Translations under genes and position numbers: made by a program
Source: an uncultured Verrucomicrobiales bacterium
GTDB taxonomy: Bacteria; Verrucomicrobiota; Verrucomicrobiia; Verrucomicrobiales; Akkermansiaceae
NCBI GenBank assembly: GCA_937969495.1
Contig: CALBVY010000039.1
Coordinates: forward strand, 9,374 to 73,373
Length of the DNA stretch: 64,000 nucleotides
Direction: 5' to 3'
In this document: positions 5,393 to 61,612 of the stretch, one piece after another
Numbering within the stretch: the first letter of the stretch is position 1
How the letters are laid out: each line of letters opens with the position of its first letter
Notes under the pieces: generated by a model
The model's database searches: none
Seen by the model: only the letters and a program-made list of their open reading frames with translations
Told to the model about the DNA's origin: nothing

Positions 5393-5398
5393 GTGCAC

Positions 5399-26029: not shown

Positions 26030-26064
26030 GTTTTTCTTCCTTTAAAGGATTCAAGGGAAAACTA

Positions 26065-26080: not shown

Positions 26081-26094
26081 TGTGGGGCACCGAT

Positions 26095-26133
26095 CCATGA
26101 AGCTGACTCATGGTTTTGATGAGCTCAGATGAT
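26095..26133. promoter_or_regulatory. Tandem LysR-type boxes (CCATGA-N7-TCATGG at 26095-26113; ATGA-N7-TGAT at 26119-26133)
   Basis: T-N11-A dyads whose ATGA half-sites start 22 bp apart, just upstream of the nirB sigma54 promoter. Confidence 0.5.
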
Positions 26134-26154
26134 TCAGCTCAAAATACGGGCTGA

Positions 26155-27066: not shown

Positions 27067-27179
27067 GAATAAGAAATGGAGTAAGACCTAATGTATCATC
27101 AGCATGTATCGTACCATGTTCTCTGGATTAATAAGGTTCATGCTATTAATGAGTCTAGATGTCACCGTAGGGAAATGGT

Positions 27180-27195
27180 TGGCATACCAGATGCT
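27180..27195 (+). promoter_or_regulatory. sigma54 (-24/-12) promoter of the ferredoxin-DmsC/nitrate reductase operon: TGGCATACCAGATGCT
   Basis: Exact GG-N10-GC spacing; same ATGCT -12 variant as the nirB promoter. Confidence 0.65.
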
Positions 27196-27206
27196 ATGAT
27201 AAGGTA

Positions 27207-28898: not shown

Positions 28899-28908
28899 GA
28901 GATCTAGA

Positions 28909-39231: not shown

Positions 39232-39306
39232 GGCGGAGTGGCCAAGTGGTAAGGCATCGGTTTGCAAAACCGACATTCGCGGGTTCGATTCCCGCCTCCG
39301 CCTCCA
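39232..39306 (+). tRNA. tRNA-Cys (GCA)
   Basis: Acceptor stem GGCGGAG/CTCCGCC, anticodon arm TCGGT-TTGCAAA-ACCGA, T-loop GGTTCGATTCC, encoded CCA end. Confidence 0.97.
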
Positions 39307-39332: not shown

Positions 39333-40502
39333 TTATCTTTGATAAATTGGAAGAATCTTCATGCAAGGTGTAAGAGCTATGATTGCTAGAGAAGTGGAGT
39401 AAGCTGCCCCATATGGTGCAGCAGAACCTCTTCTGGGCCATATCCCTGTGGGATCTTGCAAAGGTAAAAGATAATTATAGCACTCTTTCATACCTGTTAC
39501 CCAGAGTTGACCGCCCATCTGGATAGAAGCCTGTGTTACATAATAACAGGTATAATACGGGTAATATCTTCTGCAGTGCGAAAGAAAAGCATTGATATTC
39601 CTTGCTGAGAATTTACTCAAATAAGCAGACGATTTTAACAAAGCTGGGTGTTTATGTTTCCCTGCAAGGGCAACACATAACGTGCCTGCCGCTGTCATAA
39701 TAAAGGAGCTCCGATCATCACTAGAAATGTAGCGAAAGCCTCCTTGAGGCGTCTGATTTCGTAATACGAAGTTTGCAATACGGTCCATTACTTTTTCAGG
39801 GACATCAAATCCAGCGTTGCGAATAGAGCGTAGTGAAGCAGCATGCCAACCTGTCACCGATACATCTCCCTCAGCTCTATCTCTCCAAGGTCGGGTGTAG
39901 CGGAAGCCTCCGTCATCTTTTGCTTCTCCTTTCCTAATGTCCCAGAGCTGGAGTGTACACTTTAGCCCTTTTTCAATACCTTGTTTAATCCGAAAAGCAC
40001 GTTGAGGCTCAGTTAATCCATAAACCTCACCGAGCATTAGCATGCAGATGGCATGACAGTATGTCTTGGCTCCTCCACCGTTAACATATAAGTCACCTCC
40101 TCTGGGTATCATGTTAATCTCTGGATAATTAAGCTCTTGCGCAGCGAATAGTCCACTTTTTTGCTGAATGGATAACACGTAATTCAATGCCCTATCAAGT
40201 TGCTTGCCATAGGGGCCTTCGCCAGGGCGGTGCCCCCGCGATAGATATGCCATAATAGCAAGGGAGGTAATAGCTGGCTTGCCGTGTCTTTGCGTTTGAA
40301 AACTACCATTTGCCTCTTGCAGTCGCGCAAGAGCCTTCAAGCCTCTGTCCACGCTATCGGTTAGTTTTTTCATCTCAGTATCAGTCAGCGCCTGAGGAAG
40401 TGGAGCAGAAGGGTCAATAAGCGAGATTTCACCTTTGGGCACCTGTCCAAAACAACACCCCAATGAGCATATAAATACAATAATGTAAGAAATAAAATTC
40501 AT
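39333..40502 (-). CDS. Prenyltransferase/squalene-oxidase-repeat (alpha/alpha barrel) secreted protein, paralog 3
   Basis: Signal peptide, LQEANGSF/QTPQGGF QW-like repeats, DGGFRY, GDVSVTGW, C-terminal LPIYQR. Confidence 0.85.
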   Translation of the reverse strand: MNFISYIIVFICSLGCCFGQVPKGEISLIDPSAPLPQALTDTEMKKLTDSVDRGLKALARLQEANGSFQTQRHGKPAITSLAIMAYLSRGHRPGEGPYGKQLDRALNYVLSIQQKSGLFAAQELNYPEINMIPRGGDLYVNGGGAKTYCHAICMLMLGEVYGLTEPQRAFRIKQGIEKGLKCTLQLWDIRKGEAKDDGGFRYTRPWRDRAEGDVSVTGWHAASLRSIRNAGFDVPEKVMDRIANFVLRNQTPQGGFRYISSDDRSSFIMTAAGTLCVALAGKHKHPALLKSSAYLSKFSARNINAFLSHCRRYYPYYTCYYVTQASIQMGGQLWVTGMKECYNYLLPLQDPTGIWPRRGSAAPYGAAYSTSLAIIALTPCMKILPIYQR

Positions 40503-40547
40503 AGATCTATTTAATGACGATTTAATCATTTATTGTTAGATAATTCA

Positions 40548-41741
40548 CTACCTTTGATAAATTGGAAGAAGTTGTAAAGGAGGCGTGAGAGAAAGAATAG
40601 CCATTGAGGTAGAATAGACTTTCCCAAATCTAGTAGTATGCCCTAGCGGCTTCCAGAAGCCAGATTGCATCTGCTTAGGCAAAAGATAACTATAACAATT
40701 TTTCATAGATTTTCTCCAGAGACGCCCACCCAGCTGCATGCTTATCTGTGTCATATAATAGCATGTGTAGTAGGGATAATATCTATTGTATTGATTAGTA
40801 AAAAACTTGGCGCTCGTTATATCAAATCTATTAAGAAACTGGCTAGATTTCTTTAGTGCTGGATGATCGTGTTTCCCTGTTAAGGTCAGACATAGAGAGC
40901 CCGCAGCGGTCATGGTAAAAGTGCTACGATATCCTGGATGAGGTAAATACCCAAAACCTCCATCAGCGTTTTGATTTCTAATAGCAAAACCTGCTAATCT
41001 ATTGGTCACTCCTTCTGGCACCTCAAAACCAGCATTAGCAATAGACCGCAAGGAAGCTGCAAACCATGAAGTCACGGAAAAATCAGATTCACCACGTATT
41101 TGTAGACTACCTTTATAAGGGCGAAAATACCGAAAGCCACCATCATCTTTAACTGATTTTTTTCTAACATTCCAAAGCTTCAGTGTGCACACCAGACCTT
41201 TCTCAATGGCTTTACGAATGCGGAACGAATTTTTAGGATCAGAAACTCCATACACTTCTCCCAACATGAGCATACATATAGGGTGGCAATACGACTTAGC
41301 GACACCTCCCACAGAATAAAGCTCCGTCAGAGATCGCCCAGTTAAGTCCGTCTCGATGAGAGCATAGTTAAAATCTTCATTAGCAAATAATCCGCTTCTT
41401 TTTTGAATAGATAGAATGTGGTTCACAGCCTTATCCAGTAGCTTCCCATAAGGGCCTTGACCTGGTTTATGTCCCCTCGAAAGAAAAGCCATGATCGCCA
41501 TGGAAGTTACCGCAGGCTTGGAATATTCAGGGTTTGCAAAACTGCCATCTGCCAATTGCAGCGTCGCAAGAGCTTTAAGTCCTCTATCTACACTAGCCGT
41601 TAGTTTTTTAATCTCTGCATCATTAAGAGCCCTAGGAAGTGGTGCAGAAGGGTCAATAAGGGGGGGGTCACCTTTGGGAATTTCTCCAAGACAACATCCT
41701 AATGAGCAGATTAATAAAATAATATGATAGATAGATTTCAT
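40548..41741 (-). CDS. Prenyltransferase/squalene-oxidase-repeat secreted protein, paralog 2
   Basis: LQLADGSF, DGGFRY, SDFSVTSW, QNADGGFGY, LPIYQR. Confidence 0.85.
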   Translation of the reverse strand: MKSIYHIILLICSLGCCLGEIPKGDPPLIDPSAPLPRALNDAEIKKLTASVDRGLKALATLQLADGSFANPEYSKPAVTSMAIMAFLSRGHKPGQGPYGKLLDKAVNHILSIQKRSGLFANEDFNYALIETDLTGRSLTELYSVGGVAKSYCHPICMLMLGEVYGVSDPKNSFRIRKAIEKGLVCTLKLWNVRKKSVKDDGGFRYFRPYKGSLQIRGESDFSVTSWFAASLRSIANAGFEVPEGVTNRLAGFAIRNQNADGGFGYLPHPGYRSTFTMTAAGSLCLTLTGKHDHPALKKSSQFLNRFDITSAKFFTNQYNRYYPYYTCYYMTQISMQLGGRLWRKSMKNCYSYLLPKQMQSGFWKPLGHTTRFGKVYSTSMAILSLTPPLQLLPIYQR

Positions 41742-41755
41742 TCCCAGGGTACTTC

Positions 41756-42922
41756 TCATCTTTGGTAAATTGGCAGGATTTGCATGGATGGAGTTAAGGC
41801 AATAATAGCCAAAGATGTGGAGTAAGCCTGCCCATAACGTGCTGAACGCTCAAAGGCCGGCCAATGACCAGAGGCCAATTGTTTTGGCAAAAGATAGTTA
41901 TAACACTCCTTCATACATTTTACCCACAAAGCTCCACCCATCTGAATAGCTGCTTGAGTCACATAATAACACGAATAGTAAGCATAGATTGTATGCCCTC
42001 CAGTTGCTTTAAAACACAGTGGTGAAGCAGCATTAAACCGATACAAATAGCGACATGCCCGCTCAAGTGAGGAATGATCATGTCTTGCTGCTAGTCCTAT
42101 GCAAAGAGTTCCCGCAGCGGTCATCACAAATGAACTTTGTCCACGAACCAAGTAACTGAAACCTCCGTCAGGGCATTGCGTCTTGACAACGTAAGCCACA
42201 ATACGGTTCATGACATTTTCTGGCACATCAAATCCAGCATTACGAATAGAACGTAGTGAGCTTACATGCCACGCTGTAACTGATAAATCAGAATCATTAC
42301 TCCCATGAAGACGGGTGTAACGAAACCCTCCATCGTTCATTGACGATTTTTTTCTAATATCCCAGAGCTCTAAGGTGAACTTAAGTCCCTTGGTGATCGC
42401 CGCTTTAACGCGGAATGTATGCTTAGGATCAGTTAAGCCATAGACCTCTCCAAGCATAAGCATACAAATGGCATGGTTATAGGTCTTGGCAGTACCGCCT
42501 GCACCACGCACGTCCGCCTCACGTATAGGAACATTAATTAAAGCAGTATTAATTTCCTGACTCGCAAAAAGTCCGCTTTTCTTTTGGGTTGTAAGCACGT
42601 AGTCCAATGCTTTATCGATCTGCTTGCCATAAGGACCTTCGCCAGGGCGGTGACCACGCGATAAATATGCCATAATCGCAAACGAAGTAATAGCTGGCTT
42701 CCCGTGATTTAGAGTGGGAAAACTACCATCTGCTAGTTGCAATTTAGAAAGTGCCCGTAGCCCTCTATCTACGCTGGTAGTTAGCTTTTGCATCTCCGCA
42801 CTAGTTAGAGCCTGAGGGAGTGGTCCGGAAGGATCCATCAGCGGAAGCTTATCTGTTGGAGCCTGTCCTAGGCAGTATCCCGATGAATAGGTTAATAAAA
42901 TAATGTAAACAAAAGTTTTCAT
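41756..42922 (-). CDS. Prenyltransferase/squalene-oxidase-repeat secreted protein, paralog 1
   Basis: LQLADGSF, DGGFRY, SDLSVTAW, QCPDGGFSY, LPIYQR; ATGA overlap with the upstream gene. Confidence 0.85.
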   Translation of the reverse strand: MKTFVYIILLTYSSGYCLGQAPTDKLPLMDPSGPLPQALTSAEMQKLTTSVDRGLRALSKLQLADGSFPTLNHGKPAITSFAIMAYLSRGHRPGEGPYGKQIDKALDYVLTTQKKSGLFASQEINTALINVPIREADVRGAGGTAKTYNHAICMLMLGEVYGLTDPKHTFRVKAAITKGLKFTLELWDIRKKSSMNDGGFRYTRLHGSNDSDLSVTAWHVSSLRSIRNAGFDVPENVMNRIVAYVVKTQCPDGGFSYLVRGQSSFVMTAAGTLCIGLAARHDHSSLERACRYLYRFNAASPLCFKATGGHTIYAYYSCYYVTQAAIQMGGALWVKCMKECYNYLLPKQLASGHWPAFERSARYGQAYSTSLAIIALTPSMQILPIYQR

Positions 42923-45900
42923 TTGTTTTTCTCATTATTGTTATTTTCCTCAGCTATTTCGCGGAAATACTGTTCTATAGCCTCTCGATATGCCTCTGGA
43001 ATATCTGAGTCAACATCTTGACTCAAACTTTGCCTCAGCTCACTTGAGAGCTTGTTCCAACTTTCACCTCCTTCAAAAAGCTTAGTTCCACGGTTTTTCC
43101 ATGGAACGGCGATTTTTTTATAAAGAGCTTCAGACATAGCATTACGATTCTTATTAGCTTTTTGCTGAGCTTTAGCTGCATTACGTTGAGCATTTTTAGC
43201 TTGTTGCTGCTGCTCTTTTTTAGCTTGTTGCATCTCCCGACGCTTCTTTTCTATTTCCTTTTTCTCTTTTTTCTCTTTTTTTGTAGCCTTCTCCCAGTCA
43301 GTTTTCACCTTAAGATTAAAGGTTGGTTTTATACCTAGTTCCATCTTCGCTTCTCTTGGCTGTCTGGCTTCTTTTTCTAGTCTAGCAAGAGTATCTTGCA
43401 GCGCTTGTAACATATCTTCCTCGTTGAGAGTTTTTGCTGGGGCAGGAGGCTCTTCAGGGTCCGGCTCCTTGTTCTTTTCTTTGACAAATTCAACAATAGC
43501 CATATCTAACAATTTAACACCTTTCTCTATTAACTCTGCGGCTTTTTCCTGATGAGGAATGGCATTCTTAGCCCAAGGAGCTAAGTTATGTGTTAATATA
43601 TTTTTTTGAGTTTCGAGAAGATCTTTTTCCATAATCTGGCTAAGCTTATTAATCGTTTCATCTATTTTTACTGACACACCACTCAATCTAGCAAGTTCAG
43701 AAGAAAGCCTTAAAACAGTATTGGCTGTCTCAGAATTAATCTCCTTCTGCAGCTGCATCACAAATGCCTGGTAGTCTTTTTTATCCAGACAACCTAACAA
43801 ATAACGATTGGATTTTATTGATAAATCCATTGCTGTGAGGTCTGAGATCCTTATATCAACATACTCTCCATCTAAACGTTTAATATCTACATCCGCTAGA
43901 ATAGCCTCCGCTCGTTGATGGGCATGATTTAGTTTTATGAAATAACTTTTGAGCTCACTGATTTTTTCCGTTGGAGTCTCGGCCAAGCTCGTTGCTATGT
44001 TAGATAGACCGGAGAATGCTTTTGTTAATTTTTGACACTGTTCTACAGAAGCCTTTTGAGGGATCCAAATCTGGGCATTCCCCATGGCATTGGTTGTTTG
44101 ATTAGAGAATTCCATCAGACGTTCTTTCAAAATATCTGACAGCTTCTGCATCGGAAACTCTTCAACAGCTAACTCCTTATTGATATCAACAAGTAACAAC
44201 TGTCGATTCCGAAGCTTAGAAAGTACTTCTCGGAAAATACCGCCACCTGTTGGATTGAGCCTGGTGAGCATTTTTGAACGTAGGTCAGGTCGCTCTTGTA
44301 AGAGTTCGCTCAATCTCTTGAGAAGCTCTCTTTTAAATTTTATTTTGGCAATCTCATCTTTTATTTCTTGATCTGACAACTCAGCACGGAGTGTCGGGTA
44401 GGGGCTACCTGGTCATCCGCCTCATGTAGAACCTGGCATATCTTCGACGGTAACGGTATGCATCTTTTTGAACTGATGAGCCAAATTTTCAATTTCTTCC
44501 ATCTCGATGATGGATTCAAACTGTGATTCTGTTTCCTCCAATAGCTTGATTACCCATCTGAGCCGTTCATCAACAGCATCAAGCTTGACCATAATAAAAT
44601 CAGGATCAGGTTTTTTCAGAGCTTCTTTCATTGCCATCACAGCGGGTGCAAAGCCGTTTTCTACTATACCCTTAGCTTGTATCCCAAAGAATGAGTAGGG
44701 AGTGCCCTCGCTGATTTTTCTAAGATTCTCAGCGCTTTCCGCTCCTTTCTCAAGAATCTGAATTAACTCTGGGGAGAGATTACGAGAAGTATTCTGCAAG
44801 CTTTGACCTACTCTCTCTATTTGTTTATCTTTTACTAAATCATCAAAGCGGATCAAAGCAACAAGACGACGACCTTCTTGTGCGTTTTCCCGGATCCCTT
44901 CGATAACATGCTTAATCGCAATCTGTTTTTTCTTTTGTCCGTCACCTGCAACAAGATGACTTTCGTATTCATCTACAGTTACTTTCGCCGATTTACTTTG
45001 AGCTGATTCACTTTCAAGATCTAGTTTACGTTTTGCTATCTGCTCCTCTTTAGCTCGGTTCTGATTCTTATCACGGTTTTCTTTTTGTGCTTTAGCGATA
45101 GTATCAATTGCCTTATCGATTTCTTCTTCAACCTGTTTGAGCTTGGACTCCGAGTTACCAGATTCTGCAGCCTCTCCAATCAGTTCCTGAATTTTCGCAA
45201 TTGATTTTTTGACGTCGTTTTTTAAATCTTCCGAATCAATTTCTTGAGCCATCTCTTGAAGCTCGTCCACTTGTTTAGAAAGATTTTGTAAGTTGTTGGT
45301 CTGGTTCTGATCCTGCTGTCCTTGCTGACCCTGTTGACCCTGTTGACCCTGTTGACCCTGTTGACCCTGTTGACCGTCGATACCTTGGCGTATTGAATTA
45401 GCCTCTTGTTTTACAGCAGATAAGCCTGACCGCAGTTTGTTTAAATTCTCTGCTTGAGCCAGTTCCCTCTGAGCTTTTTGGAGTGCTCTTTGTGCTTCTT
45501 GATTTAGATTATGAAGTGCTTGTTCTGCTTTTTGAATATTACCTTCAGCTTCTTTCAAGTCTTCTTTAGATACATCCGGAGATTTTCCACCCCCAAGGCT
45601 TTTCTGGGCTTTACTGATTTCACTCTTTATAGCTTGCAGCTGATTTTTAGCTCCTTCATCCAAAGAACTTGCGGACTTTTTAGCTTCACTTAACTGCTGG
45701 CGTGTTTTTGCTGTCGCTGCGGCCGCTGATTGATTTTGTTTGCCGCTTTGTTGAGAAGTCTGCCCTTGCTTCTGATTTTCACCTGACTGTTTAGCCTTCA
45801 TCGCTTTCTTGTTAGAAGCGTTGGCGCTAGCCAATTGATTTTTTAATTCTCCTAGTTTAGCTATCTTCTCTTGCAGTTTTTCCTCTTGTTTTCTGAGTTC

Positions 45901-47820
45901 CTGATATTCAAGGTCGTCTTGCTTAGATTCATTCTTAGCAATTTCGTTCTCCAGCTCACGTCGCATTTTAGTCAAAGCTTCACGTGCCTTAGCAATTTCA
46001 GCCTGGCTCGATTGAAGATCCTTCATAGGATTTTTGTCAGTCTTTGCGTCCTCCAATTTTTGGTTAGCCTTAGAGATAGAAGACTTCAGATTTTTCAATT
46101 CCTCACTATTGATATCTTTCAGCTGATCTGCTCTCTGCTTTGCTTTGCTAACATGGTCTTGAGTTTTCTGAGCTAACTGCTTCTTGTTTGATTGATCATC
46201 TGGCTCCACATTTGCCTTCAAGGCCTGAGAGTTTGCTTCTTTAGCTTTTCTAAGTTCATCGTCTAGCTGATTCATTTGGCTTAAAATTTGTTTAAGCGCA
46301 TCATTTTCTTTTTCCAGTTCATCAACTAGAAATTGATTAGATTTCTCAAATGAAGCTAACCCTTTTGAGTCTTCTACTTCGACCAAATAATTAAGCTGAG
46401 AATTTTCTGTAATAGGTAATTTACTAAGATCAAGAGTAACAGAACTTTCTATTTTCTTTGAACCCTTTTGGTCTTTAAGATCTATGGGAAAATAAAACTT
46501 TTCTTTCTCCCCCTCTGCATTTGTTACCTCTGCAACTAGACGAGCCGCTTCCACCCCATAGTCATCCTTTGCTTGAAACTTAACCTCAAGCAATTCATCT
46601 GCTTTCATAACAAAAGTTTCTGTATCTTTTAGAAGGTTTACCTTAGGAGCTTTATCGGCAATAGCAACTAAGCTTATTTTCATTTGAGATTTCAAATTAC
46701 CTATTTTTGAAGTCATTTTAAAATCAGCATGAACTGTATTGATAACATTGACTTTATGGGTGTAGGTCTTTGCTGAACTTTCAGTCAGTATCTCTTGAGT
46801 AACTTTACCCCCTGTATTGGTATCAAAGGTTGCCTGAAGAACTTCTTGGTCAACTTCGATCTCGAAATCAACCACACTGCCTTGAGGTATTTTGATCTTA
46901 CGTGGAAGCTTACTCAGGATCCAAGGTTTCAGTTTAGTATATGCTGGAGGTGTAATGGTAATTTTCCCACTGACGATAGCAGGCTTATCAATCATAGTAA
47001 CCTGCTTCCAAGCTGACTGAGTATCACCAGCAATAACACGATAAGAGAAGTCTGCTACCCTATTTAATATCTTGTGAGAAAGGCTCCCAGTAGCTTGATC
47101 GATGTCAATCAAACGCTCTTCGATCAACCCGCTCGTAGAGCGTTCTTGGACTTTTACTTGATCCGGTATTTTCCCAGAAACGGTAACCTCAATTGAGTAA
47201 TCTTTTCCTCTTGGATGAATCACCTCACCTTCTTTCTGAGAAATTATCGTTAGAGTATTATTATTCCATGGACTTAACAGCCTATCCAATAATTTAGGGA
47301 AAGCAGATCCCATCATAAAAGCAAAACCGCATAATAAAATAATAGAACCAACAAAAGTAAAAGAAGCTTGTTTAAATGACCGGCTTTTAATTAATTTACT
47401 ACTTCCACTTTTTATTTCTAAATGATTGACCTGATCTCCTACGGCTTGAAGTAAATTTGTCGAACAATTTTCTGCGCCCTCTAATTCTACTGAAGTCACT
47501 AAACGTTCCTCGAGATCGGGGTTTACTTCATCTAGCCATTTTGCTGTTTCTTCCTGACTAGATTCGAACTTCATTTTTCCCCAGACCCATCGAAAAGAAA
47601 CAATGAGTACTACTAATACAACTAAACTAAGTATAACCCGTGACCATAAAGATTTTAACTCAAAATTCCAGTCAATATACATCGCTAGTATAACTGGTAA
47701 AACAATGGCACTAGCAATACCTAAAAAGAGATAGATTGTCCGAATTAGCCTACGCTCACGTTTTTCAGCCGAGAGAGCTTTCAGAGTTTCTTCAGATAAA
47801 TGATTGTTATTTTGTGTCAT
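42919..47820 (-). CDS. Giant membrane-anchored coiled-coil protein (DUF4175-like architecture), probably one 1633-aa selenoprotein with U-G-G-U at 1133-1136; otherwise two ORFs 44422-47820 and 42919-44379
   Basis: Both track ORFs share a frame. The linker reads ...DMPGST-TGA-GGC-GGA-TGA-PGSPYPTLRAELSDQE. Three N-terminal TM segments, Ig-like beta region, long coiled coils, C-terminal W..L...LR..L.Q..IPEAYREAIEQYF motif. SECIS-like hairpin downstream of the TGAs. Confidence 0.7.
44375..44395 (-). promoter_or_regulatory. Candidate bacterial SECIS element
   Basis: GACA-CUC[CGUGCU]GAG-U-UGUC: 7-bp stem, bulged U, 6-nt loop with G at position 2; loop starts 24 and 33 nt after the two UGAs. Confidence 0.55.
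45313..45375 (-). repeat. 9-bp tandem repeat encoding (GQQ)7
   Basis: Five perfect GGTCAACAG units (45331-45375) plus two synonymous variants. Confidence 0.95.
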
Positions 47821-47844: not shown

Positions 47845-50460
47845 TTATGAAAGACCTATTCGACGACGTAATGCCCACTCTGAAGCAGCTATAAAGAGAA
47901 TGGCAATAAGTAATGGCCAAACATCCCAAAGGGGGCGTTTTTTTGTTGTTTTGATAATTTCGGGCTTAAAATCAAGAGCTTCAAGCATCAGAGAAAAAGT
48001 GCCCGGAGTAATCGTTGCTGCAAGTGGCAGACTGTTAACTTGACCCCAAAATTTGGAGTTAGCATCTGCAATCTGTAACTCTTCTACTTCGATTTCTTTT
48101 TCTACAATGATTTTGATAAGCTCCTTATCCGGATGAAGTTTTTGATCAGAATCTATAATATGTTGGATAGCCTCTCCTGAATAATTTAGTTCGTATTCCC
48201 CAGAAGGAATATCTCTAAACCTCACATAGAAATCTCCAGGTTGATTATCCACTGGTATTGGCTTCATCTCTGCTACTGCAGTGCCGTCCTTGCTTAAAAC
48301 AGCAGTAAAGTCAGCATCAGTAAATGGCTCGCCGTTCTCAGCCTTAACTCGGAGACGTCCCTCTATTTCCTCACCTGGTTTTAAAATTGCCCGTTGAAGA
48401 CGAGTGGCGAGCAAGGTGTCACTGAATCCGTAATTATCGACACATATGCCACGGATAATTTGTCCCCATAGCTTTGCGTGATATTTATCTCCATATCTGA
48501 AGCGGAGATGATAGAGGCAAGGGGCTGCAAAGTAGGCCACTCTTCCGCTACCATAGCGCTGTTTCGCACAGAAATCATAAGATGTTCCATCACTCGACGT
48601 TGCTTTTAGGAGCACATTCGCGGATGATTTTGCTTTAAGCCAAGGAGAGAGTGAATACTGAGGAGTGACTTGGAAAATTGACTGCCAAATCTGCTGAGTT
48701 TTTTCCCCTTCCAGATCAACCATTCGGTTAATAGGTCTGTTTATGGGAGGGTGCACTACAAAAGACCCATTTATCATAGTATTACTAACCTTTATCATTG
48801 GAATTAACGCTTCTAGTGGTCCATCCATGAAACTAGATGGCATACTATGAGGCCCAGCTAGAATAATAAGATTTCCTCCATCATTCACATATTCTAAAAG
48901 CAATTTCTGATGTTCTAGCGTTAGGTATTCAGGAGTAAGATCTCCTAGAATAACAAGATCATAAAGCTTCCATGTTGCCAAATCAAAGGGAAGCGCAATC
49001 GGCTCTTTAGCGGACTTCCCAGGAAAACTGTGTCTTGGCTGGAATACGATACTGCTCATCTTAATCGAGGGGTCTCGATTAAAAAGATTTTGTAAGTAAC
49101 GAGTTTCCCAACGCGGAAATGTATCAGAGACTAAAACCTTATAATTGTCTTTAAGAACCGCACAATCTAGGGAGGCCTTATTATTAATGAGGGAGGTCTC
49201 GCCTGTTATTGAGGATAACTCGATGACAAGCTGATGCATACCAACACCCTTCGCTTGCCATTTAATATCTACTTGTTCACTTGTTCCATTTCCTTTCAAG
49301 CTCACTTCCTGGCTTTGTAAGATTTTATCCCCTTCTTTCAAAGAAAGTGTTACTATCTCTGGCACACTGTTCTTTGAAGAAACTAAAACTGTTACAATAA
49401 GGGTATCTTTCTCTCGTATTCTTGAAGGACTGACTACTGAATCGATCCGAGCATCTGGGGTATTAGATGCGTCCCCTACTGGAAAGACGATTAGAGGCTG
49501 ACTCAAAATATCGTTAGAAAAATTCTTTTCCATATCACCCGAGTCATAACCATCAGTGATCAATATCGAAAGTTGTGTTCCTTTCATATAATCACGTCTC
49601 CCTAGATTATTTAAATTTTCATAAAGATGTGTTTTAGGTTCTCCAGATAAATCCACCTCAACCTTCTTATTCATATCTTGCTGAGAAAGGGTATTTGAGA
49701 ACTTTGAAACGCGTAAGTCATAGCGCTCTGAAAGCTCTTCAAACACTTTATTAGATTTCTGGAGCCAATTATTCACCAAGGTTAAGCGGGACAGATTCTC
49801 TTTAGCCACTCCGGATGGCTCTTGTATAGCAATGACTCGTCTCAGGCTCGTAGCAGTCTGAGAAATAAGTTCTGATGCACGGTAGAGATCACCTAAAAAA
49901 TCATCAGAACCAACATCTTGAAGCACGCCCATCGATGCATTTAATGTCTTTCGTGGTGCTTTCATCAATCTAGTTAGGGAGGTATCATTTTTAATAATGT
50001 CTAACTTTAAACCAGCCTGCTTTAAGATTTCTATAATACTCACTATCTCAGCATGAAGGCCTTCAGAAGATTTACTTAGATTACGATTTAGAAGATTCAG
50101 CCGAATTCGAGCAGCCTCAGTTAAGGTAAGGGCCTCATCGATTGGTTGAGGAGCTGAGAAATTTTCCCATGAAGAAGTGTTTACGCCAATCTCATCTGTG
50201 AGAGACATACTCTGTGAAACATCAATCCCTAAATTGGCAGTAACAGGGAGTAATTCTTCTTTAGTTTTGATCGCGCGTGGCTGAGCAATCAAAAGCCATA
50301 TCAGTAAGCTCAAAATCGAACGCAGTAAAAATAATGTCCAGCGTACCTTCTTCGTTTGATCCTGAGTTTGCTGATGAAGTAGATAACCGAAAAAAGCAAT
50401 AGTAAGCCCAGCCCCTATGAGAAGCTGAACGGGATGCAATGATGTTTCGATGCTAGACAT
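47845..50460 (-). CDS. Membrane protein with vWA-like and class I glutamine amidotransferase-like (GATase1_like/DUF1355) domains
   Basis: IDVSQSM MIDAS-like motif, LITDG, PRWETRYL, YDLVILGD, GGNLIILAG, YGSGRV, C-terminal TM LWD.WPLL...EWALRRRIGL. Confidence 0.78.
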   Translation of the reverse strand: MSSIETSLHPVQLLIGAGLTIAFFGYLLHQQTQDQTKKVRWTLFLLRSILSLLIWLLIAQPRAIKTKEELLPVTANLGIDVSQSMSLTDEIGVNTSSWENFSAPQPIDEALTLTEAARIRLNLLNRNLSKSSEGLHAEIVSIIEILKQAGLKLDIIKNDTSLTRLMKAPRKTLNASMGVLQDVGSDDFLGDLYRASELISQTATSLRRVIAIQEPSGVAKENLSRLTLVNNWLQKSNKVFEELSERYDLRVSKFSNTLSQQDMNKKVEVDLSGEPKTHLYENLNNLGRRDYMKGTQLSILITDGYDSGDMEKNFSNDILSQPLIVFPVGDASNTPDARIDSVVSPSRIREKDTLIVTVLVSSKNSVPEIVTLSLKEGDKILQSQEVSLKGNGTSEQVDIKWQAKGVGMHQLVIELSSITGETSLINNKASLDCAVLKDNYKVLVSDTFPRWETRYLQNLFNRDPSIKMSSIVFQPRHSFPGKSAKEPIALPFDLATWKLYDLVILGDLTPEYLTLEHQKLLLEYVNDGGNLIILAGPHSMPSSFMDGPLEALIPMIKVSNTMINGSFVVHPPINRPINRMVDLEGEKTQQIWQSIFQVTPQYSLSPWLKAKSSANVLLKATSSDGTSYDFCAKQRYGSGRVAYFAAPCLYHLRFRYGDKYHAKLWGQIIRGICVDNYGFSDTLLATRLQRAILKPGEEIEGRLRVKAENGEPFTDADFTAVLSKDGTAVAEMKPIPVDNQPGDFYVRFRDIPSGEYELNYSGEAIQHIIDSDQKLHPDKELIKIIVEKEIEVEELQIADANSKFWGQVNSLPLAATITPGTFSLMLEALDFKPEIIKTTKKRPLWDVWPLLIAILFIAASEWALRRRIGLS

Positions 50461-50466: not shown

Positions 50467-52680
50467 CTAATAGATCGGTTTAAGATGAATTCTTCCTGAG
50501 GACCTTTGACGGCGCTTTGCGAGCCGATGCGCTAGGATAGCCTCAGCGATAAAGAAAAGTCCTGACACGATAGCAAACCACATGGCTAAGGACCACTTCC
50601 CTCTATTTTCATACTCTTCAGGGGATAATGTACTAAACGCTGCTCCACGGATTAGCTCCTTTGCCTGGCTATCATTAAGACTAGTGATATCTGATTCATT
50701 ATCCGTTCGTTTTACATTAAAGATTTGAGTAGGGTGCTTCCCATTTTCATCCTCAACGCCATTGATACGATAGAGCCCAGGGAGAAATATATTTGCCGTT
50801 TGGAATACTCCACCTAACTGCTGAAGCTCTTCCGTGGAACCATCAGGGCGAGTGACTGTGACCGAATTTCCTTCAATTGTTTTATCTAGAATCGGAATAC
50901 GCAATATTTCTCCAGGATTAAGATTCCTTATAGAAATTCCGTTTCCAATACACTCTCGCAGGGTCTCTCGCATGATTGGAACAAAAGTCTGAAGAATTGG
51001 TAGATTTGTATTACTACGGCTTAAGTCACACATTTGCAGAATGACCCTGCCTGGATATGCTGGAATGGAAAGTAAGATAGGATTTCCGTTAGACGTCTGA
51101 AGAAGTTTTTCCCCATCTAGAAAATTGACTTCATTAAGTTGGTGAAGCTTCACAAGCTTAGCATCAGAAAGATCGAGATGGTATGCCGCTATAGCATCTA
51201 AATAGTCCTCATTTCTACTATTAGCTATCACCCTCATAGGCTTTCTTTTATCTGGACTCTCTAAGATGTTCGTTTTGCTTAATGAGTCTAAATCTAAATT
51301 TTTGAGTAATTTCGTAGTCCATGAAGGTAGCTCACCATTCTGTTGCCCCAACATCAGCCAAAGACCACGACCAGAAGCTACAAAATCTTTAATTTTCTCA
51401 TAGGAAGATGAAGGGAGAAAATCAGCACTTGCAATAATCACCGCAAGATAATCGCCAAGCACAACTCCATCTAACTCTGTGCTCTTAATTACTTTAGAAT
51501 TAAAAATGGAACGGCTCTTAGCAGAAGAAGCGCGTTTAATCGATAGGTTGCCACCGAGAGACGCTATTATAAATTGCGAGGGGAGAATCTGACCTTCCTC
51601 TACTCTCTCGGTATCATCAACAATTAGAACGCGTGGTTCAGTAGTTGAAGATAATGCTAGGATCGCACTGTTATCAGCCGAAAGAGGATCGTCATCAACT
51701 TCGAGACGACATTCGACTACTTGATCTCCAGAATCTTCGATAACAATAAACTGTTCAATATTAAGCTCACTTGAAGGTAGTAATCCTACAAGATCTAATC
51801 GCTCTACCTCTTTATCATTAATAAGCCATACCACTTGCGCACCATAGATACGGTCTTCTGAGTAATTTCTTAATGTAGCTCGAAAACGCTGTTTTGAACC
51901 AGTGGCTACAGTATCTCGGTCAGCCTCCAATGACACAACAGCAACTTGAGGCCCCTGTACTTCAGAAAATCCTTTATGCTTAGCGAGACGAAGTGATAGG
52001 TTAGGGTCATCGGAAATTCGTCTATCAACATTAGCCCAGCGATCTTTTTCTGAAGGTTGCCATGCACTTTCTTGCAAGTCATGCACAACGATTAAATTGC
52101 GTTGCTTACTATCATTTTCTTCAGTGACTGAATTGATTGCGAGGAGAATAGCTTTTGCTAGGCTGGATCCTCCTGCATCGAGCTTTTGCTCCGCAATGAT
52201 TTTGGCAAGGCTTTTACGATTATTTTTAGTTAGAGAAAGGGGTTCCTCTTTCAGCCACCGAGGCTTCGCTCCAACTAAAAGAACTCTTACCGTTGAATTA
52301 TCAGGTAAATCATCTATTTCATCTAATAATACTTGCCGGATAATCTCTTGCCGTGAGACACCATAAATATCTACCGCAGAAGTTGACATCGAAATATCCC
52401 AAACAAGAACCGTCTCCACCTGAGAGCTACTTACAAACAACTTTGAGGCAAGTGGCTGAGCGAATGTAAGAATAAGAAAAATAATGGCGAGCGCACGTAG
52501 TAATAAGAGTAAACGGTCGCGTAACCGATGTCTTTTTGAGCTTGCGCTATTAACCGATTTCTTCAGGAAATCCATAGCCCCCCATGATAAAACCTTAGAT
52601 TTCTGGCGCGTCAATAGATGAATAACTATCGGAAGACCCACGGCCAACAACCCTATAAGAAAGAAAGGAGACGCAAACAT
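50467..52680 (-). CDS. BatA N-terminal double-TM + vWA domain protein
   Basis: LPIVIHLLTRQK...WGAMDFL...LLLLRALA...FAQP (BatA), WDISMST, VHDLQ, CARDB-like region, C-terminal TM. Confidence 0.85.
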   Translation of the reverse strand: MFASPFFLIGLLAVGLPIVIHLLTRQKSKVLSWGAMDFLKKSVNSASSKRHRLRDRLLLLLRALAIIFLILTFAQPLASKLFVSSSQVETVLVWDISMSTSAVDIYGVSRQEIIRQVLLDEIDDLPDNSTVRVLLVGAKPRWLKEEPLSLTKNNRKSLAKIIAEQKLDAGGSSLAKAILLAINSVTEENDSKQRNLIVVHDLQESAWQPSEKDRWANVDRRISDDPNLSLRLAKHKGFSEVQGPQVAVVSLEADRDTVATGSKQRFRATLRNYSEDRIYGAQVVWLINDKEVERLDLVGLLPSSELNIEQFIVIEDSGDQVVECRLEVDDDPLSADNSAILALSSTTEPRVLIVDDTERVEEGQILPSQFIIASLGGNLSIKRASSAKSRSIFNSKVIKSTELDGVVLGDYLAVIIASADFLPSSSYEKIKDFVASGRGLWLMLGQQNGELPSWTTKLLKNLDLDSLSKTNILESPDKRKPMRVIANSRNEDYLDAIAAYHLDLSDAKLVKLHQLNEVNFLDGEKLLQTSNGNPILLSIPAYPGRVILQMCDLSRSNTNLPILQTFVPIMRETLRECIGNGISIRNLNPGEILRIPILDKTIEGNSVTVTRPDGSTEELQQLGGVFQTANIFLPGLYRINGVEDENGKHPTQIFNVKRTDNESDITSLNDSQAKELIRGAAFSTLSPEEYENRGKWSLAMWFAIVSGLFFIAEAILAHRLAKRRQRSSGRIHLKPIY

Positions 52681-53621
52681 TATTTCATAAAGGTTGTTTG
52701 ACGTTCAATAAACTTAGTCAACGAGGCACCCACTGGCTGGTCTGTTACTAAAGGTTCATAGCCAGCTCGATTCGATAAACAAATCTTACGAAGCTTCTCA
52801 ATATGGTCTTCCACAGCAGCTCTGTAAGCATCCACTATTTCATGAGGATTAACATCAAGACTTTCGTTAGATTCCAGGCTTACAAACCGAAAAGGATTTT
52901 TATAATCAAATGTGATTTCTTCAGGTGCTAGAGTCTGAAGCCAATGGAACCGGTGCCTACGTCCTGTCAGAAAAGCAAGCTCAGGCTCTAAAGTATCAAG
53001 ATCTAATAAGGCATCTGAAACAATGATAACCCTAGTCGGGTTTCGTAGACTTTTCCCAAGATTCCGGAGGCTCTCAGCAATTCGTGTTTCACCTGATGCA
53101 GGAGTCTGAGCCAGAGTATGTAAAATCTGATGAAACTGTGAGCTAGACGCCTTCGGCCACAGTAATCCAGGGGCATCATCCCCCGCAATCAGCAAACCTA
53201 CTGGGTCTCTTTCTTGAAGAACAGCTTTAGAGAGAAACGCAACAATAGCCTGAGCAAAATGATACTTGGAACGAGATGACTCTGCAAATGACATTGAGCC
53301 GCTAGCATCGATTAGAAACACCGTTTCCAGCGTAGATGGGTCATCGTATAATTTGATTTCGAGGCGATCAGACCGTCCCACAATACGCCAATCAAGCTTT
53401 CTCACCTCATCACCAGGAGAATAGGAGCGATGCTCTGCAAATTCCGTTGTTCCGCCCCTGAGCCTAGCTCGATGGATACCTGACATCCTACCTCTTACCC
53501 GTTGATTGACAGGAAAACTCGCCTTTTTAAGATAAGTCATATCTTCTGAGGTGAGCCATTCATCCAGTAGATAAGACTGAGAAGCGGATGCTTTATTGAG
53601 CTGTGGTTCCACAGAGTTCAT
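52680..53621 (-). CDS. DUF58 domain protein (vWA-like)
   Basis: G.H.....G.TTEFAEHRSYSPGDEVRKLDWR, LIDASGSM, IVSD. Confidence 0.93.
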   Translation of the reverse strand: MNSVEPQLNKASASQSYLLDEWLTSEDMTYLKKASFPVNQRVRGRMSGIHRARLRGGTTEFAEHRSYSPGDEVRKLDWRIVGRSDRLEIKLYDDPSTLETVFLIDASGSMSFAESSRSKYHFAQAIVAFLSKAVLQERDPVGLLIAGDDAPGLLWPKASSSQFHQILHTLAQTPASGETRIAESLRNLGKSLRNPTRVIIVSDALLDLDTLEPELAFLTGRRHRFHWLQTLAPEEITFDYKNPFRFVSLESNESLDVNPHEIVDAYRAAVEDHIEKLRKICLSNRAGYEPLVTDQPVGASLTKFIERQTTFMK

Positions 53622-55065: not shown

Positions 55066-55644
55066 ATGAGACTTCTCTATATTACCCTAGCCCTTGTTCT
55101 TGCGCAGCCAGTTTTAGCGCAGCGAAATCGTGTTGATAATGCGCCTAAAGTGGGTGAACCGATTCCCCAGGTATCCGCCGTGGCAATGAAAGGTCATCAA
55201 AAAGTGGATCTTTCCAAGCCTGATAAAGTGACGGTTCTTATCTTTGGGTCTCATACCTGAGGGCCATTCATGCGGCAGACCGGGCGTCTGCAGAAAATGT
55301 ATGAAACTTATGGTGAAAAGGCTGATTTTTGGTGGATCTACATTCAAGAGGCGCATGCTACGGATGGCCGCCGGCCTAGCAAAAAAGTTAAAATTGCTCT
55401 GCATAAAACGTTAGAAGACCGGAAAAAAGCTGCTGCTGGGTGTAGCGAAGCTTCTCGTTTAAAGGTGCCTGTGCTTCTTGATGATATGCAGGATACAGTT
55501 TCCAATGCCTACTCAGCGCGCCCTGAGAGGTTTTTTATTCTCGGTGCAGATGGTAAGGTGGCTTACTCAGGAGCGCGCGGCCCCAGAGGCATTAATCTTG
55601 ATGCCCTAGAGAAGCGGTTAAGTGAACTTACCACCAAGGAGTAA
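55066..55644 (+). CDS. Secreted iodothyronine-deiodinase-like (thioredoxin-fold) selenoprotein, 192 aa, Sec65
   Basis: Track ORFs 55066-55260 and 55270-55644 are in frame: VLIFGSHT-TGA-GPFM, then YIQEAHATDG. This matches the deiodinase FGS.TUPPF and YI.EAH..DG motifs. Signal peptide present; SECIS-like hairpin downstream. Confidence 0.88.
55275..55291 (+). promoter_or_regulatory. Candidate bacterial SECIS element
   Basis: GCAGAC[CGGGC]GUCUGC perfect 6-bp stem; loop begins 20 nt after the UGA and has G at position 2. Confidence 0.65.
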
Positions 55645-60383: not shown

Positions 60384-60398
60384 AATGGGTTTGGAAAG

Positions 60399-61586: not shown

Positions 61587-61612
61587 AGCGGGTATCATCG
61601 GGGTGTGAAAAA

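What the first reader, a model, noticed from the sequence alone, without database searches (positions are those of the whole stretch)
44375..44424. Hidden UGA-Gly-Gly-UGA (putative UxxU di-selenocysteine) motif joins two ORFs into one 1633-aa protein
Seen in sequence: ORF 44422-47820 ends at TGA (44422-44424) and a second in-frame TGA follows at 44413-44415. The frame then stays open to 42919, giving ...VEDMPGST*GG*PGSPYPTLRAELSDQEIK... The downstream ORF has only a weak TTG start. The two stops have exact CxxC spacing within a Gly/Pro-rich loop. Established: UGA encodes Sec when a SECIS follows, and UxxU motifs are rare (known from the thioredoxin-fold SelL family). Inference: two independent nonsense mutations three codons apart are unlikely. 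This is probably a selenoprotein class I do not recognise: a giant membrane-anchored coiled-coil scaffold of a MoxR/vWA operon with a redox or metal-binding UGGU site. With three N-terminal TMs, that site is likely extracytoplasmic.
Basis: partly seen in the sequence, partly recalled or inferred. Interest (0 to 1): 0.95.

Follow-up and report, generated by a model that had tools for sequence, protein, structure and literature searches.

The report
New two-selenocysteine membrane scaffold protein
Two stop-like TGA codons three codons apart almost certainly encode selenocysteine, joining two "genes" into one 1633-residue membrane-anchored protein that appears to be an unlisted bacterial selenoprotein family in marine Verrucomicrobia.

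Summary
On the minus strand, TGA 44424-44422 and TGA 44415-44413 lie in one open 1633-codon frame (42919-47820). This is not an error or a pseudogene.

- **Conservation:** three lineages only 58-62% identical keep TGA-Gly-Gly-TGA. Other relatives have a single TGA or TGA-Cys.
- **Cysteine counterparts:** fused homologs carry CxxC (exactly aligned), CxC, CC or C at the same spot.
- **SECIS candidate:** a 7-bp hairpin (44395-44375, loop CGUGCU) starts 17 nt after the second TGA. It fits the geometry of the bacterial SECIS model, shows compensatory changes, is absent from the Cys forms, and sits in the most synonymously constrained stretch of the gene.
- **Sec use in this organism:** the window holds a second gene of a known selenoprotein family, a secreted deiodinase-like protein (55066-55644, FGSHT-TGA-GPF). 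Nine related genomes conserve its TGA.
- **Novelty:** the family (Pfam DUF4175 hit, MoxR/DUF58/BatA operon) is not among the 119 families in a 2026 review, and NCBI annotates the one named relative as a truncated protein. Bacterial UxxU motifs are already known elsewhere.

Not tested: selA/B/C/D in this genome, Sec versus Cys at the TGAs, and the function of the site (redox or metal; inference only).

The parts
42919..47820 (-). One recoded gene for a 1633-aa membrane-anchored protein with a DUF4175 domain, with Sec at residues 1133 and 1136. Gene callers annotate it as two ORFs (44422-47820 and 42919-44379).
   Evidence: Single open frame. Pfam DUF4175 59.1 bits on residues 289-487. Homologs of 1200-1610 aa are single ORFs. 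Three hydrophobic segments at about residues 29-49, 61-80 and 152-174.
44422..44424 (-). First in-frame TGA (codon 1133). It is the accessory Sec position and aligns with the first Cys of CxxC in L027.
   Evidence: It is present only in the three UGGU lineages (window, L001, L003).
44413..44415 (-). Second in-frame TGA (codon 1136). It is the primary Sec position, four residues before the Pro of the conserved 'PY' motif.
   Evidence: It is TGA in all six Sec-type lineages. It is Cys in P0006, P0008, P0009, L027, L028 and L029, and in 5 distant homologs.
44375..44395 (-). SECIS candidate: GACACUC-[CGUGCU]-GAG(U)UGUC, a 7-bp stem with one bulged U and a 6-nt loop. The loop starts 24 nt after TGA2 and 33 nt after TGA1.
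   Evidence: Predicted in every TGA-type sequence and by RNAalifold. 97.6% of cells are paired and 2 pairs show compensatory double changes. Cys or no-Cys forms keep only 2-5 of 7 pairs and lack the CGUG loop. Synonymous codon identity is 0.82-0.84 here against a gene mean of 0.52.
44397..44409 (-). Small upstream hairpin GGUAG-CCC-CUACC, intact only in the UGGU-type genes. Its role is unclear: it may be a spacer or may stack on the SECIS hairpin.
   Evidence: There is no covariation. The loop has no G in the window and L001, so it is not a canonical SECIS. Together with the SECIS hairpin it gives -9.6 to -11 kcal/mol.
55066..55644 (+). Second selenoprotein gene: a secreted deiodinase-like (thioredoxin-fold) protein, FGSHT-U-GPF, with TGA at 55258-55260 and a hairpin GCAGAC-[CGGGC]-GUCUGC at 55275-55291.
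   Evidence: Pfam PF00837 scores 113.9 bits across the TGA when U is replaced by C. Hairpin region -17.5 kcal/mol. Nine orthologs keep the TGA and the CGGGC loop. 'Deiodinase-like' is a listed prokaryotic selenoprotein family (PMC13188914).
47845..54617 (-). Upstream genes of the same operon: MoxR AAA+ ATPase (53622-54617), DUF58/VWA (52680-53621), BatA-N double-TM/VWA protein (50467-52680) and an 871-aa protein (47845-50460).
   Evidence: Pfam and NCBIfam hits. The same gene order occurs in L001, L003 and L030.
39333..42922 (-). Three downstream paralogous proteins with weak prenyltransferase/terpene-cyclase-like alpha/alpha-toroid hits (41756-42922, 40548-41759, 39333-40529).
   Evidence: Pfam PF00432 hits fall just below the cut-off. 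A 43%-identical ortholog follows the no-Cys homolog P0013. A 388-aa ORF of unverified homology follows the no-Cys gene in L026. These genes therefore do not track the Cys/Sec site.

Best explanation
ORFs 44422-47820 and 42919-44379 are one gene. Both in-frame UGA codons are read as selenocysteine, giving a 1633-residue protein with the motif Sec1133-Gly-Gly-Sec1136.

Proposed decoding (inferred): the hairpin at 44395-44375 acts as a bacterial SECIS. SelB carrying Sec-tRNA(Sec) binds its CGUG loop. The loop starts 24 nt after UGA2 and 33 nt after UGA1, both inside the 16-37 nt range of the consensus model. The hairpin starts 26 and 17 nt beyond the respective codons. I infer from general knowledge of the ribosome's mRNA footprint (not computed here) that it stays folded while each UGA is in the A site. 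One element could then serve two successive insertions. If insertion fails, for example under selenium shortage, termination at UGA1 would leave a 1132-residue fragment.

The protein (shown by prediction): it has three N-terminal hydrophobic segments and is a long, mostly helical member of a family with a DUF4175 domain. It is encoded in a MoxR-DUF58-BatA/VWA operon. The Sec pair sits at the tip of a Gly/Pro-rich beta-hairpin loop between helical bundles. The location is probably periplasmic, judged only by hydropathy and charge.

Function (inferred, about 0.4 likely): the loop is a reactive chalcogen site that forms a reversible diselenide or selenenylsulfide. The bond would be intramolecular in the UGGU, UC, CxxC, CxC and CC forms and intermolecular in the single U or C forms. 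The site would work as a redox switch or crosslink in this envelope complex. Soft-metal binding is the main alternative (about 0.25).
For: - **Continuous frame:** both TGAs lie in one frame. Gene callers chose different starts for the downstream 'ORF' in different orthologs, so no start is conserved.
- **Conserved TGA at the same position:** UGGU occurs in the window, L001 and L003; UC in L004-L007; a single U in L008, L010 and L012.
- **Cys in fused homologs at the same columns:** CxxC in L027, CxC in P0006 and P0008, CC in P0009 and L028, C in L029.
- **Hairpin:** it has compensatory changes (A:U to G:C in L010; C:G to A:U and A:U to G:C in L004). The CGUG loop is invariant and carries G-U at positions 2-3. 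The hairpin is absent from Cys forms. Synonymous constraint peaks exactly there.
- **Fit to the published bSECIS model:** loop size, stem length, loop G and spacing all fit (PMC13188914).
- **Sec use in this organism and clade:** a deiodinase-like gene has TGA at the catalytic position and a similar C-[CGGGC]-G hairpin. Nine Verrucomicrobiales genomes conserve it.
- **TGA is a normal stop elsewhere:** this excludes a code change.
- **Sequence is not an assembly error:** an independent assembly is identical.
- **Structure:** the AF2 model of the Cys ortholog (pLDDT 84) places the CDC motif in a loop between two short strands flanked by helices.
Against: - No selA, selB, selD or tRNA-Sec lies in the 64 kb window. 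The rest of the genome could not be reached.
- The hairpin alone folds at only -5.0 kcal/mol, weaker than the -7.5 kcal/mol of the consensus model. It reaches -9.6 to -11 only together with the neighbouring small hairpin.
- Covariation rests on six sequences (3 compensatory cells; 3 of 500 shuffles reach the score).
- Decoding of two UGAs 9 nt apart by one SECIS has been proposed (PMC13582414), but I know of no demonstration.
- Sec cannot be told from Cys inserted by a tRNA-ReC-type tRNA by sequence alone.
- The function of the site is inferred only from the variable spacing of the pair and from general selenoprotein chemistry.
- Topology comes from hydropathy and charge only.
Confidence: 0.78

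Rival explanations
1. The UGAs are recoded with the help of the same SECIS-like hairpin, but one or both are read as cysteine by a tRNA-Sec-like Cys tRNA (tRNA-ReC/SelC*). The product would then be CGGC, UGGC or CGGU rather than UGGU.
For: PMC13582414 reports tRNA-ReC-like tRNAs in about 56% of genomes with UXXU-type hydrogenases. It notes that either UGA could then be read as Cys. Cys is fully acceptable at both positions in homologs.
Against: The only tRNA near the operon, tRNA-Cys(GCA) at 39232-39306, is a canonical 75-nt tRNA. The deiodinase-like gene, a family whose Sec form is well known, uses the same kind of hairpin in this clade. Cys codons are one mutation away, so keeping UGA in at least six lineages argues that UGA gives something Cys does not.
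Confidence: 0.08
2. Only the second UGA (44415-44413) is efficiently read as Sec. The first UGA mostly terminates, so the main product is the 1132-aa N-terminal protein and full-length protein is a minor isoform.
For: UGA2 is the universally conserved position, while UGA1 is limited to three lineages. The loop is 33 nt from UGA1, near the upper end of the 16-37 nt range. The small hairpin nearer to UGA1 lacks the loop G in the window and L001.
Against: UGA1 aligns exactly with the first Cys of a CxxC homolog. It is retained in three lineages at 58-62% identity while the codons around it changed. If UGA1 always terminated, UGA2, the SECIS and the 500-codon C-terminal half would not be under selection in those lineages, yet they are.
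Confidence: 0.1
3. These are two genuine separate genes, or a decaying pseudogene. The TGAs would be real stops, the downstream protein would start at TTG 44379, and the similarity to fused homologs would reflect an old gene split.
For: Gene callers and NCBI annotate two or truncated proteins, for example WP_165788743.1 'DUF4175 family protein' of 1109 aa in R. profundi. From my memory of the TIGR02302 model description (not checked here), a split member exists in Bradyrhizobium.
Against: - No start codon is conserved: callers chose TTG or various internal ATGs.
- The 14 codons between TGA2 and the TTG are conserved as protein in frame in all lineages.
- Cys occupies the TGA columns in homologs.
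- The TTG lies inside a conserved hairpin.
- Two nonsense codons conserved across six lineages with an intact downstream frame do not fit decay.
Confidence: 0.03
4. UGA is a sense codon (Trp or Gly) in this organism, or the site is read through without any special machinery.
For: The second UGA is followed by C in the window (UGAC). From general knowledge, not tested here, that is a weak termination context.
Against: TGA ends 10 of 48 long ORFs here, and no other long ORF is interrupted by TGA. Homologs have Cys at these columns, not Trp or Gly. A specific hairpin co-occurs with the UGA forms only.
Confidence: 0.01

Closest known systems
[quoted passage not shown]
   Same: All have two UGA codons 9 nt apart that replace a CxxC pair. 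A stem-loop follows the second UGA, and one SECIS has been proposed to serve both (PMC13188914, PMC13582414).
   Different: Those are small thioredoxin-fold or metal-site proteins, or enzymes in which CxxC is an ancient catalytic motif. Here the pair sits in a variable loop of a 1633-aa all-helical membrane protein. Most family members have no Cys there at all. No NCBIfam model of those families matches.
DUF4175 (PF13779) / TIGR02302 family of MoxR-DUF58-BatA/VWA operons
   Same: The N-terminal part matches PF13779 above the cut-off. The protein has 2-3 N-terminal hydrophobic helices and a long Gln/Gly-rich low-complexity stretch. The operon partners are the same.
   Different: TIGR02302 scores only 18.6 bits against a cut-off of 394, so this is not that equivalog. 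No member is described as a selenoprotein, and public records call the halves 'DUF4175 family protein' or 'hypothetical'. The function of the family is unknown.
SelL (eukaryotic Prx-like UxxU selenoprotein)
   Same: It has a UxxU motif thought to form a diselenide (my knowledge; mentioned as a Prx-like protein in PMC2398784).
   Different: SelL is a eukaryotic, thioredoxin-fold protein with its SECIS in the 3' UTR. Here the fold is helical and the SECIS candidate lies inside the coding sequence.
Deiodinase-like bacterial selenoproteins (PF00837)
   Same: The gene at 55066-55644 is a member of this family. It shows that the same organism uses UGA plus a hairpin with a C-[CGKG..]-G loop for Sec.
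   Different: It is an unrelated thioredoxin-fold protein with one Sec. It is adjacent to the MoxR operon only in this window, not in nine relatives.
Bacteroides aerotolerance (Bat) operon
   Same: It has a MoxR ATPase, a DUF58 protein and BatA/BatB-type VWA membrane proteins in one operon. From memory, Bat proteins are linked to oxygen tolerance and periplasmic reducing power. This is a lead, not a test.
   Different: To my knowledge the Bat operon has no DUF4175-type giant protein and no toroid proteins. No Sec is reported there.

Membership tests
Bacterial selenoprotein (UGA recoded by a coding-region SECIS) | In-frame UGA inside a continuous, conserved coding frame | tested here: met
   The frame is open and conserved on both sides in six lineages.
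Bacterial selenoprotein (UGA recoded by a coding-region SECIS) | Cys-containing homologs with Cys aligned to the UGA (Sec/Cys pair) | tested here: met
   CxxC in L027, CxC in P0006 and P0008, CC in P0009 and L028, C in L029.
Bacterial selenoprotein (UGA recoded by a coding-region SECIS) | bSECIS geometry: loop of 3-9 nt, upper stem of 4-16 bp, G in the first two loop positions, and 16-37 nt between UGA and loop (PMC13188914, Fig 2) | tested here: met
   The loop is CGUGCU (6 nt, G at position 2 followed by U). The stem is 7 bp with one bulge. Spacing is 24 nt from UGA2 and 33 nt from UGA1.
Bacterial selenoprotein (UGA recoded by a coding-region SECIS) | bSECIS stability: MFE of -7.5 kcal/mol or lower | tested here: inconclusive
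   The hairpin alone is -5.0 kcal/mol. With the adjacent small hairpin it is -9.6 to -11.0.
Bacterial selenoprotein (UGA recoded by a coding-region SECIS) | The genome encodes selA, selB, selC (tRNA-Sec) and selD | not testable with these tools
   None lies in the 64 kb window. The species is not in the genome collection (best matches 58-73% identity). Indirect support comes from the known-family selenoprotein gene in the same window, conserved with its TGA in nine related genomes.
Bacterial selenoprotein (UGA recoded by a coding-region SECIS) | Selenium is actually incorporated (75Se labelling or mass spectrometry) | not testable with these tools
   This needs an experiment.
DUF4175 (Pfam PF13779) | Score above the Pfam gathering threshold | tested here: met
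   59.1 bits against a cut-off of 27.3, but only on residues 289-487 (profile positions 190-380 of 825).
TIGR02302 (alphaproteobacterial low-complexity protein, hypothetical equivalog) | Score above the NCBIfam cut-off | tested here: not met
   18.6 bits against 394.3. It is a distant relative only.
Thioredoxin-fold UxxU proteins (SelL / Prx-like) | Thioredoxin fold around the UxxU motif | tested here: not met
   No Trx, Prx or Redoxin Pfam hit. The AF2 model of the Cys ortholog is all-helical with the motif in a hairpin loop. There is no significant PDB fold match (best E 0.047, TM below 0.2).
NF041115 metal-binding UxxU selenoprotein / TIGR02605 FmdB family | Match to the family model | tested here: not met
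   The NCBIfam scan of both halves and of P0006 gives no such hit.

The most novel reading that the evidence does not exclude
This would be the first large non-enzymatic, non-thioredoxin-fold 'structural' selenoprotein in bacteria. One short coding-region hairpin would drive two successive Sec insertions 9 nt apart. The result is an exposed diselenide-forming loop on a giant, probably periplasmic, scaffold of a MoxR-VWA envelope machine. Selenium supply would decide between a truncated 1132-aa product and the full 1633-aa product. The diselenide would act as a very low-potential redox latch or crosslink that controls the assembly.
Probability: 0.25. Interest if true: 0.8.

Novelty: new member of a known kind. 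Interest (0 to 1): 0.62.

Why it matters
- **Annotation:** a gene that public records split or truncate is one protein. The only named record seen, R. profundi's 'DUF4175 family protein' of 1109 aa, is truncated.
- **A new selenoprotein family:** it is not among the 119 prokaryotic families in the 2026 inventory. It falls outside the usual thioredoxin-fold or metalloenzyme pattern. At 1633 residues it is far larger than the small thioredoxin-fold proteins that dominate that inventory, though I did not compare lengths.
- **A test system for dual decoding:** the clade offers a natural series at one position (none, C, CC, CxC, CxxC, U, UC, UxxU). This can be used to ask how Sec sites arise from Cys. 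It can also test whether one SECIS can decode two UGAs 9 nt apart, a question raised in 2026 for UXXU hydrogenases.
- **A handle on an unknown machine:** it gives the first chemical clue, a reactive chalcogen loop, to the function of the widespread MoxR-DUF58-BatA-DUF4175 operons.

Tried and rejected
- **Alternative genetic code:** rejected. TGA is an ordinary stop in the window.
- **Other TGA-interrupted long ORFs in the window:** none found. The three hits were off-frame ORFs inside real genes. The deiodinase-like gene was found later through its Pfam hit, which begins right after the Sec position.
- **Long-range pairing of the inter-UGA segment with the CUCCGU stretch:** this is the MFE fold of the window sequence starting at UGA1. 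It is not conserved in L001, so it was rejected in favour of the hairpin that all sequences share.
- **Small hairpin 44409-44397 as a separate SECIS for UGA1:** it shows no covariation and has no loop G in the window or L001. Not accepted.
- **Toroid (prenyltransferase-like) proteins modifying the Cys/Sec motif** (CC and CxC recall Rab prenylation motifs): weakened. A 43%-identical toroid gene follows the no-Cys homolog P0013, and a same-sized ORF follows the no-Cys gene in L026. A no-Cys homolog without toroid genes also exists.
- **tRNA-Cys at 39232-39306 as a tRNA-ReC:** rejected. It is a canonical 75-nt tRNA.
- **JGI metagenome contigs:** a protein-pattern scan and a SECIS-pattern scan both found nothing.
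- **PDB fold search:** only generic helical-bundle matches.
- **NCBIfam and Pfam:** no selenoprotein-family model matches.
- **Literature:** no paper links DUF4175 or Rubritalea to selenoproteins.
- **Sec machinery:** it could not be searched in any relative's genome because no tool reads arbitrary parts of those genomes. tRNA scans of the fetched loci found nothing.
- **Linkage of the deiodinase-like gene to the MoxR operon:** not conserved in nine relatives.
Full report
**Observation.**
On the minus strand the sequence reads ...GAA GAT ATG CCA GGT TCT ACA TGA GGC GGA TGA CCA GGT AGC CCC TAC CCG ACA CTC CGT GCT GAG TTG TCA.... TGA1 is 44424-44422 and TGA2 is 44415-44413. Translating 47820 to 42919 gives one frame broken only at codons 1133 and 1136. 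The window uses the standard code: 21 TAA, 17 TAG and 10 TGA stops among 48 long ORFs. An independently assembled Logan contig from a marine metagenome (word depth 35.7) is identical over 44200-44650.

**Context.**
The gene lies in a minus-strand operon:
- MoxR AAA+ ATPase (53622-54617)
- DUF58/VWA (52680-53621)
- BatA-N double-TM/VWA protein (50467-52680)
- an 871-aa protein (47845-50460)
- the gene in question
- three paralogous proteins with weak prenyltransferase/terpene-cyclase-like toroid hits (39333-42922)

The N-terminal ORF matches Pfam DUF4175 (59.1 bits). It has three hydrophobic segments at about residues 29-49, 61-80 and 152-174, and a Gln/Gly-rich low-complexity stretch. Charge distribution suggests the N terminus is inside and the bulk is outside the membrane, but no dedicated topology predictor was run.

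**Relatives.**
A word-indexed search with a junction-spanning query returned seven proteins. Four were 465-480-aa 'downstream halves' at 47-62% identity, one was the window's own downstream ORF at 99% identity (P0001), one was a shorter 422-aa fragment (P0005), and one was a fused protein (P0006) that reads ...TIEDMPPSE-C-D-C-RSGPYAKLK.... I read the DNA of the contigs that encode the halves. In every case the frame continues upstream through TGA:
- window, L001 (uncultured Rubritalea MAG) and L003: DMPGST-U-GG-U-[P/A]GSPYPTLR
- L004-L007: DMPPPGGT-U-C-GSPYPKLR
- L008: PPGGG-U-GSSPYPTLR
- Rubritalea profundi (L010) and a TARA contig (L012): PPGGT-U-PGNPYPTLR

An exhaustive HMMER search with P0006 found 113 homologs, and about 70 of them span the site as single proteins of roughly 1200-1600 aa. 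A further genome scan added four more forms:
- L027: GEG-C-KS-C-KPGPYPQLK, a CxxC in exact register with UGGU
- L028: K-CC-RAGPY
- L029: DS-C-PTSPY
- L026 (Prosthecobacter): no Cys, in one 1610-aa ORF

The invariant Cys/Sec position lies four residues before the Pro of 'PY', which is TGA2. A second Cys or Sec lies at -1, -2, -3 or +1 relative to it. Distant family members have no Cys there, apart from five with a single Cys in the same column. The site is therefore a clade-specific addition to a variable loop between the conserved motifs 'KMHxxxxED' and 'PY'.

**SECIS candidate.**
All TGA-type sequences fold into the same hairpin, which starts 17 nt after TGA2: GACACUC-[CGUGNN]-GAG(U)UGUC, at window 44395-44375.
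- **Pairing:** in the six-sequence alignment the helix is 97.6% paired. Two of seven pairs show compensatory double changes (A:U to G:C in L010 and L004; C:G to A:U in L004). Three of 500 shuffles reach the covariation score, and shifted registers drop to 21-50% pairing.
- **Independent prediction:** RNAalifold predicts the same helix.
- **Negative control:** five Cys or no-Cys homologs keep only 2-5 of 7 pairs in this register and lack the CGUG loop.
- **Synonymous constraint:** codon identity at identical residues is 0.82-0.84 in the 20 codons after TGA2, against 0.52 for the whole gene. This is the highest value of any bin.
- **Fit to the published model** (loop 3-9 nt, stem 4-16 bp, G in the first two loop positions, 16-37 nt from UGA to loop, MFE -7.5 or lower; PMC13188914). 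The geometry is met for both UGAs (24 and 33 nt). The hairpin alone is only -5.0 kcal/mol, and it reaches -9.6 to -11 with the neighbouring small hairpin 44409-44397.
- **The small hairpin** is intact only in the UGGU genes, shows no covariation and has no loop G in the window or L001. I do not count it as a second SECIS.

**Does this organism use Sec?**
No sel gene or tRNA-Sec lies in the window. However, ORF 55270-55644 matched Pfam T4_deiodinase starting at profile position 121, just after the catalytic Sec. Reading upstream gives ATG 55066, a signal-peptide-like N terminus, and ...VTVLIFGSHT-TGA-GPFMRQ....
- With Cys in place of the TGA, the protein matches PF00837 across the site at 113.9 bits.
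- A hairpin GCAGAC-[CGGGC]-GUCUGC starts 14 nt after the TGA. Its loop begins C-G-G-G, compared with C-G-U-G in the other gene.
- Nine orthologs (64-73% identity) in Oceaniferula spumae NT6N, Roseibacillus persicicus and several Akkermansiaceae or Verrucomicrobiaceae MAGs all keep FGSHT-TGA-GPFMR. Eight of them also keep the CGGGC loop, with changes in the stem.
- 'Deiodinase-like protein' is an established prokaryotic selenoprotein family (PMC13188914, PMC2398784).

This is independent evidence that the organism and its clade decode UGA as Sec. It does not replace finding selABCD.

**Structure.**
An AlphaFold2 model of the Cys ortholog P0006, built on a 50-sequence alignment, has mean pLDDT 84 and pTM 0.63. 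It is a series of helical bundles. The motif (C271-D-C273) lies in a 17-residue loop between two short strands (259-263 and 281-283), where pLDDT is about 65-77. Foldseek against the PDB finds nothing significant: best E 0.047, TM below 0.2, and only generic catenin, vinculin or talin-like bundles. This is not a thioredoxin fold.

**What is known.**
A May 2026 review lists 119 prokaryotic selenoprotein families or subfamilies. None is a DUF4175 or MoxR-operon protein. The review lists bacterial UxxU in Prx-like proteins, NF041115 metal-binding proteins and FmdB-family proteins. A September 2026 paper adds UXXU-type group 4 [NiFeSe] hydrogenases. That paper proposes that a single downstream SECIS serves both UGAs. 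It warns that tRNA-ReC could insert Cys instead. NCBIfam release 20 has no model that matches this protein as a selenoprotein. NCBI names the R. profundi upstream half 'DUF4175 family protein', 1109 aa. Searches for DUF4175, and for Rubritalea together with selenocysteine, found no relevant paper.

**Mechanism.**
Shown by computation:
- one frame with conserved TGAs
- Cys counterparts in homologs
- a co-varying hairpin restricted to the TGA forms
- a second selenoprotein gene in the same window

Inferred:
- SelB with Sec-tRNA(Sec) binds the CGUG loop and inserts Sec at both UGAs. I infer that the hairpin, starting 26 and 17 nt past the two codons, stays folded outside the ribosome's mRNA channel in both cases.
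- Failure to insert Sec gives a 1132-aa fragment.
- The Sec pair sits on an exposed, probably periplasmic loop.

The partner position varies (adjacent, +1, +2, +3, or absent). Precise metal-site geometry therefore seems less likely than a reactive chalcogen that forms intra- or intermolecular Se-Se or Se-S bonds. I give a redox switch or crosslink about 0.4 and soft-metal binding about 0.25. The rest of the probability is open.

**Rivals.**
- Cys insertion by a tRNA-ReC-type tRNA: 0.08
- Efficient decoding only at UGA2: 0.10
- A true gene split or pseudogene: 0.03
- A code change or plain read-through: 0.01

**Verdict.**
This is a new family within a known kind (bacterial selenoproteins), with unusual features: its size, its non-thioredoxin fold, its membrane-scaffold context, and two UGAs apparently served by one short SECIS. 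Overall confidence that both UGAs encode Sec in one 1633-aa protein is about 0.78.

Noticed in passing
window 55066-55644 (+); TGA 55258-55260; hairpin 55275-55291: A secreted deiodinase-like selenoprotein gene (FGSHT-U-GPF), which ORF callers start only at the ATG after the TGA (55270). It lies about 450 nt from the MoxR gene and is transcribed divergently from it. This adjacency is not conserved in nine relatives.
   Followed up: yes
L010 about 5890-5910 / L025 about 4480-4500 (Rubritalea profundi NZ_MQWA01000001.1): The R. profundi assembly has a 1-nt frameshift about 60 nt upstream of its TGA (EEIA(D)LTHKFKKMH reads as EEIAT*). P0014, a metagenomic protein from the same 90%-identity cluster as the R. 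profundi proteins, is intact there. The shift may therefore be a sequencing error or a strain-specific lesion. It explains the 1109-aa NCBI protein.
   Followed up: partly
window 44377-44379 (-): The TTG that ORF callers use as the start of the 'downstream gene' lies inside the 3' arm of the SECIS-like hairpin. Callers in orthologs picked different internal ATGs instead.
   Followed up: yes
window 9633-11317 (+): A Peptidase_M78 (ImmA/IrrE-like) gene and a DUF4411 gene sit between the RND pump genes (HlyD 5393-6469, AcrB 6480-9536) and the outer-membrane factor gene (11314-12744). A KAP-family NTPase follows at 12728-14971. The pair looks like a toxin-antitoxin or defence-type insertion within an efflux operon.
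   Followed up: no
window 33786-34955 (-): A DDE_Tnp_1 transposase (IS element) lies between an ArsP-type permease region and the nuoA-like gene.
   Followed up: no
window 23142-31149: A cluster that looks like nitrogen or sulfur assimilation. It holds a NirB-like nitrite/sulfite reductase (23507-26029), a Rieske-type NirD-like gene (23142-23477), a LysR regulator (26155-27066), a 4Fe-4S dicluster/DmsC-like fusion (27207-28898) and a molybdopterin oxidoreductase (28909-31149). No in-frame TGA was seen in the molybdoenzyme.
   Followed up: no
window 45320-45390 (-), residues about 812-835 of the protein: A (QQG)n repeat gives a spurious collagen Pfam hit. Ortholog P0015 has a much longer (QSGQ)n expansion at the same place, so this is a length-variable low-complexity spacer.
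   Followed up: no
window 59199-61598 (-): Two tandem FGE-sulfatase (SUMF1-like) paralogs lie next to ApbE and nucleoside-symporter genes.
   Followed up: no
window 39232-39306 (+): A canonical tRNA-Cys(GCA) lies immediately after the last gene of the operon. I checked it because tRNA-ReC-type tRNAs can carry a GCA anticodon. It is an ordinary 75-nt tRNA.
   Followed up: yes
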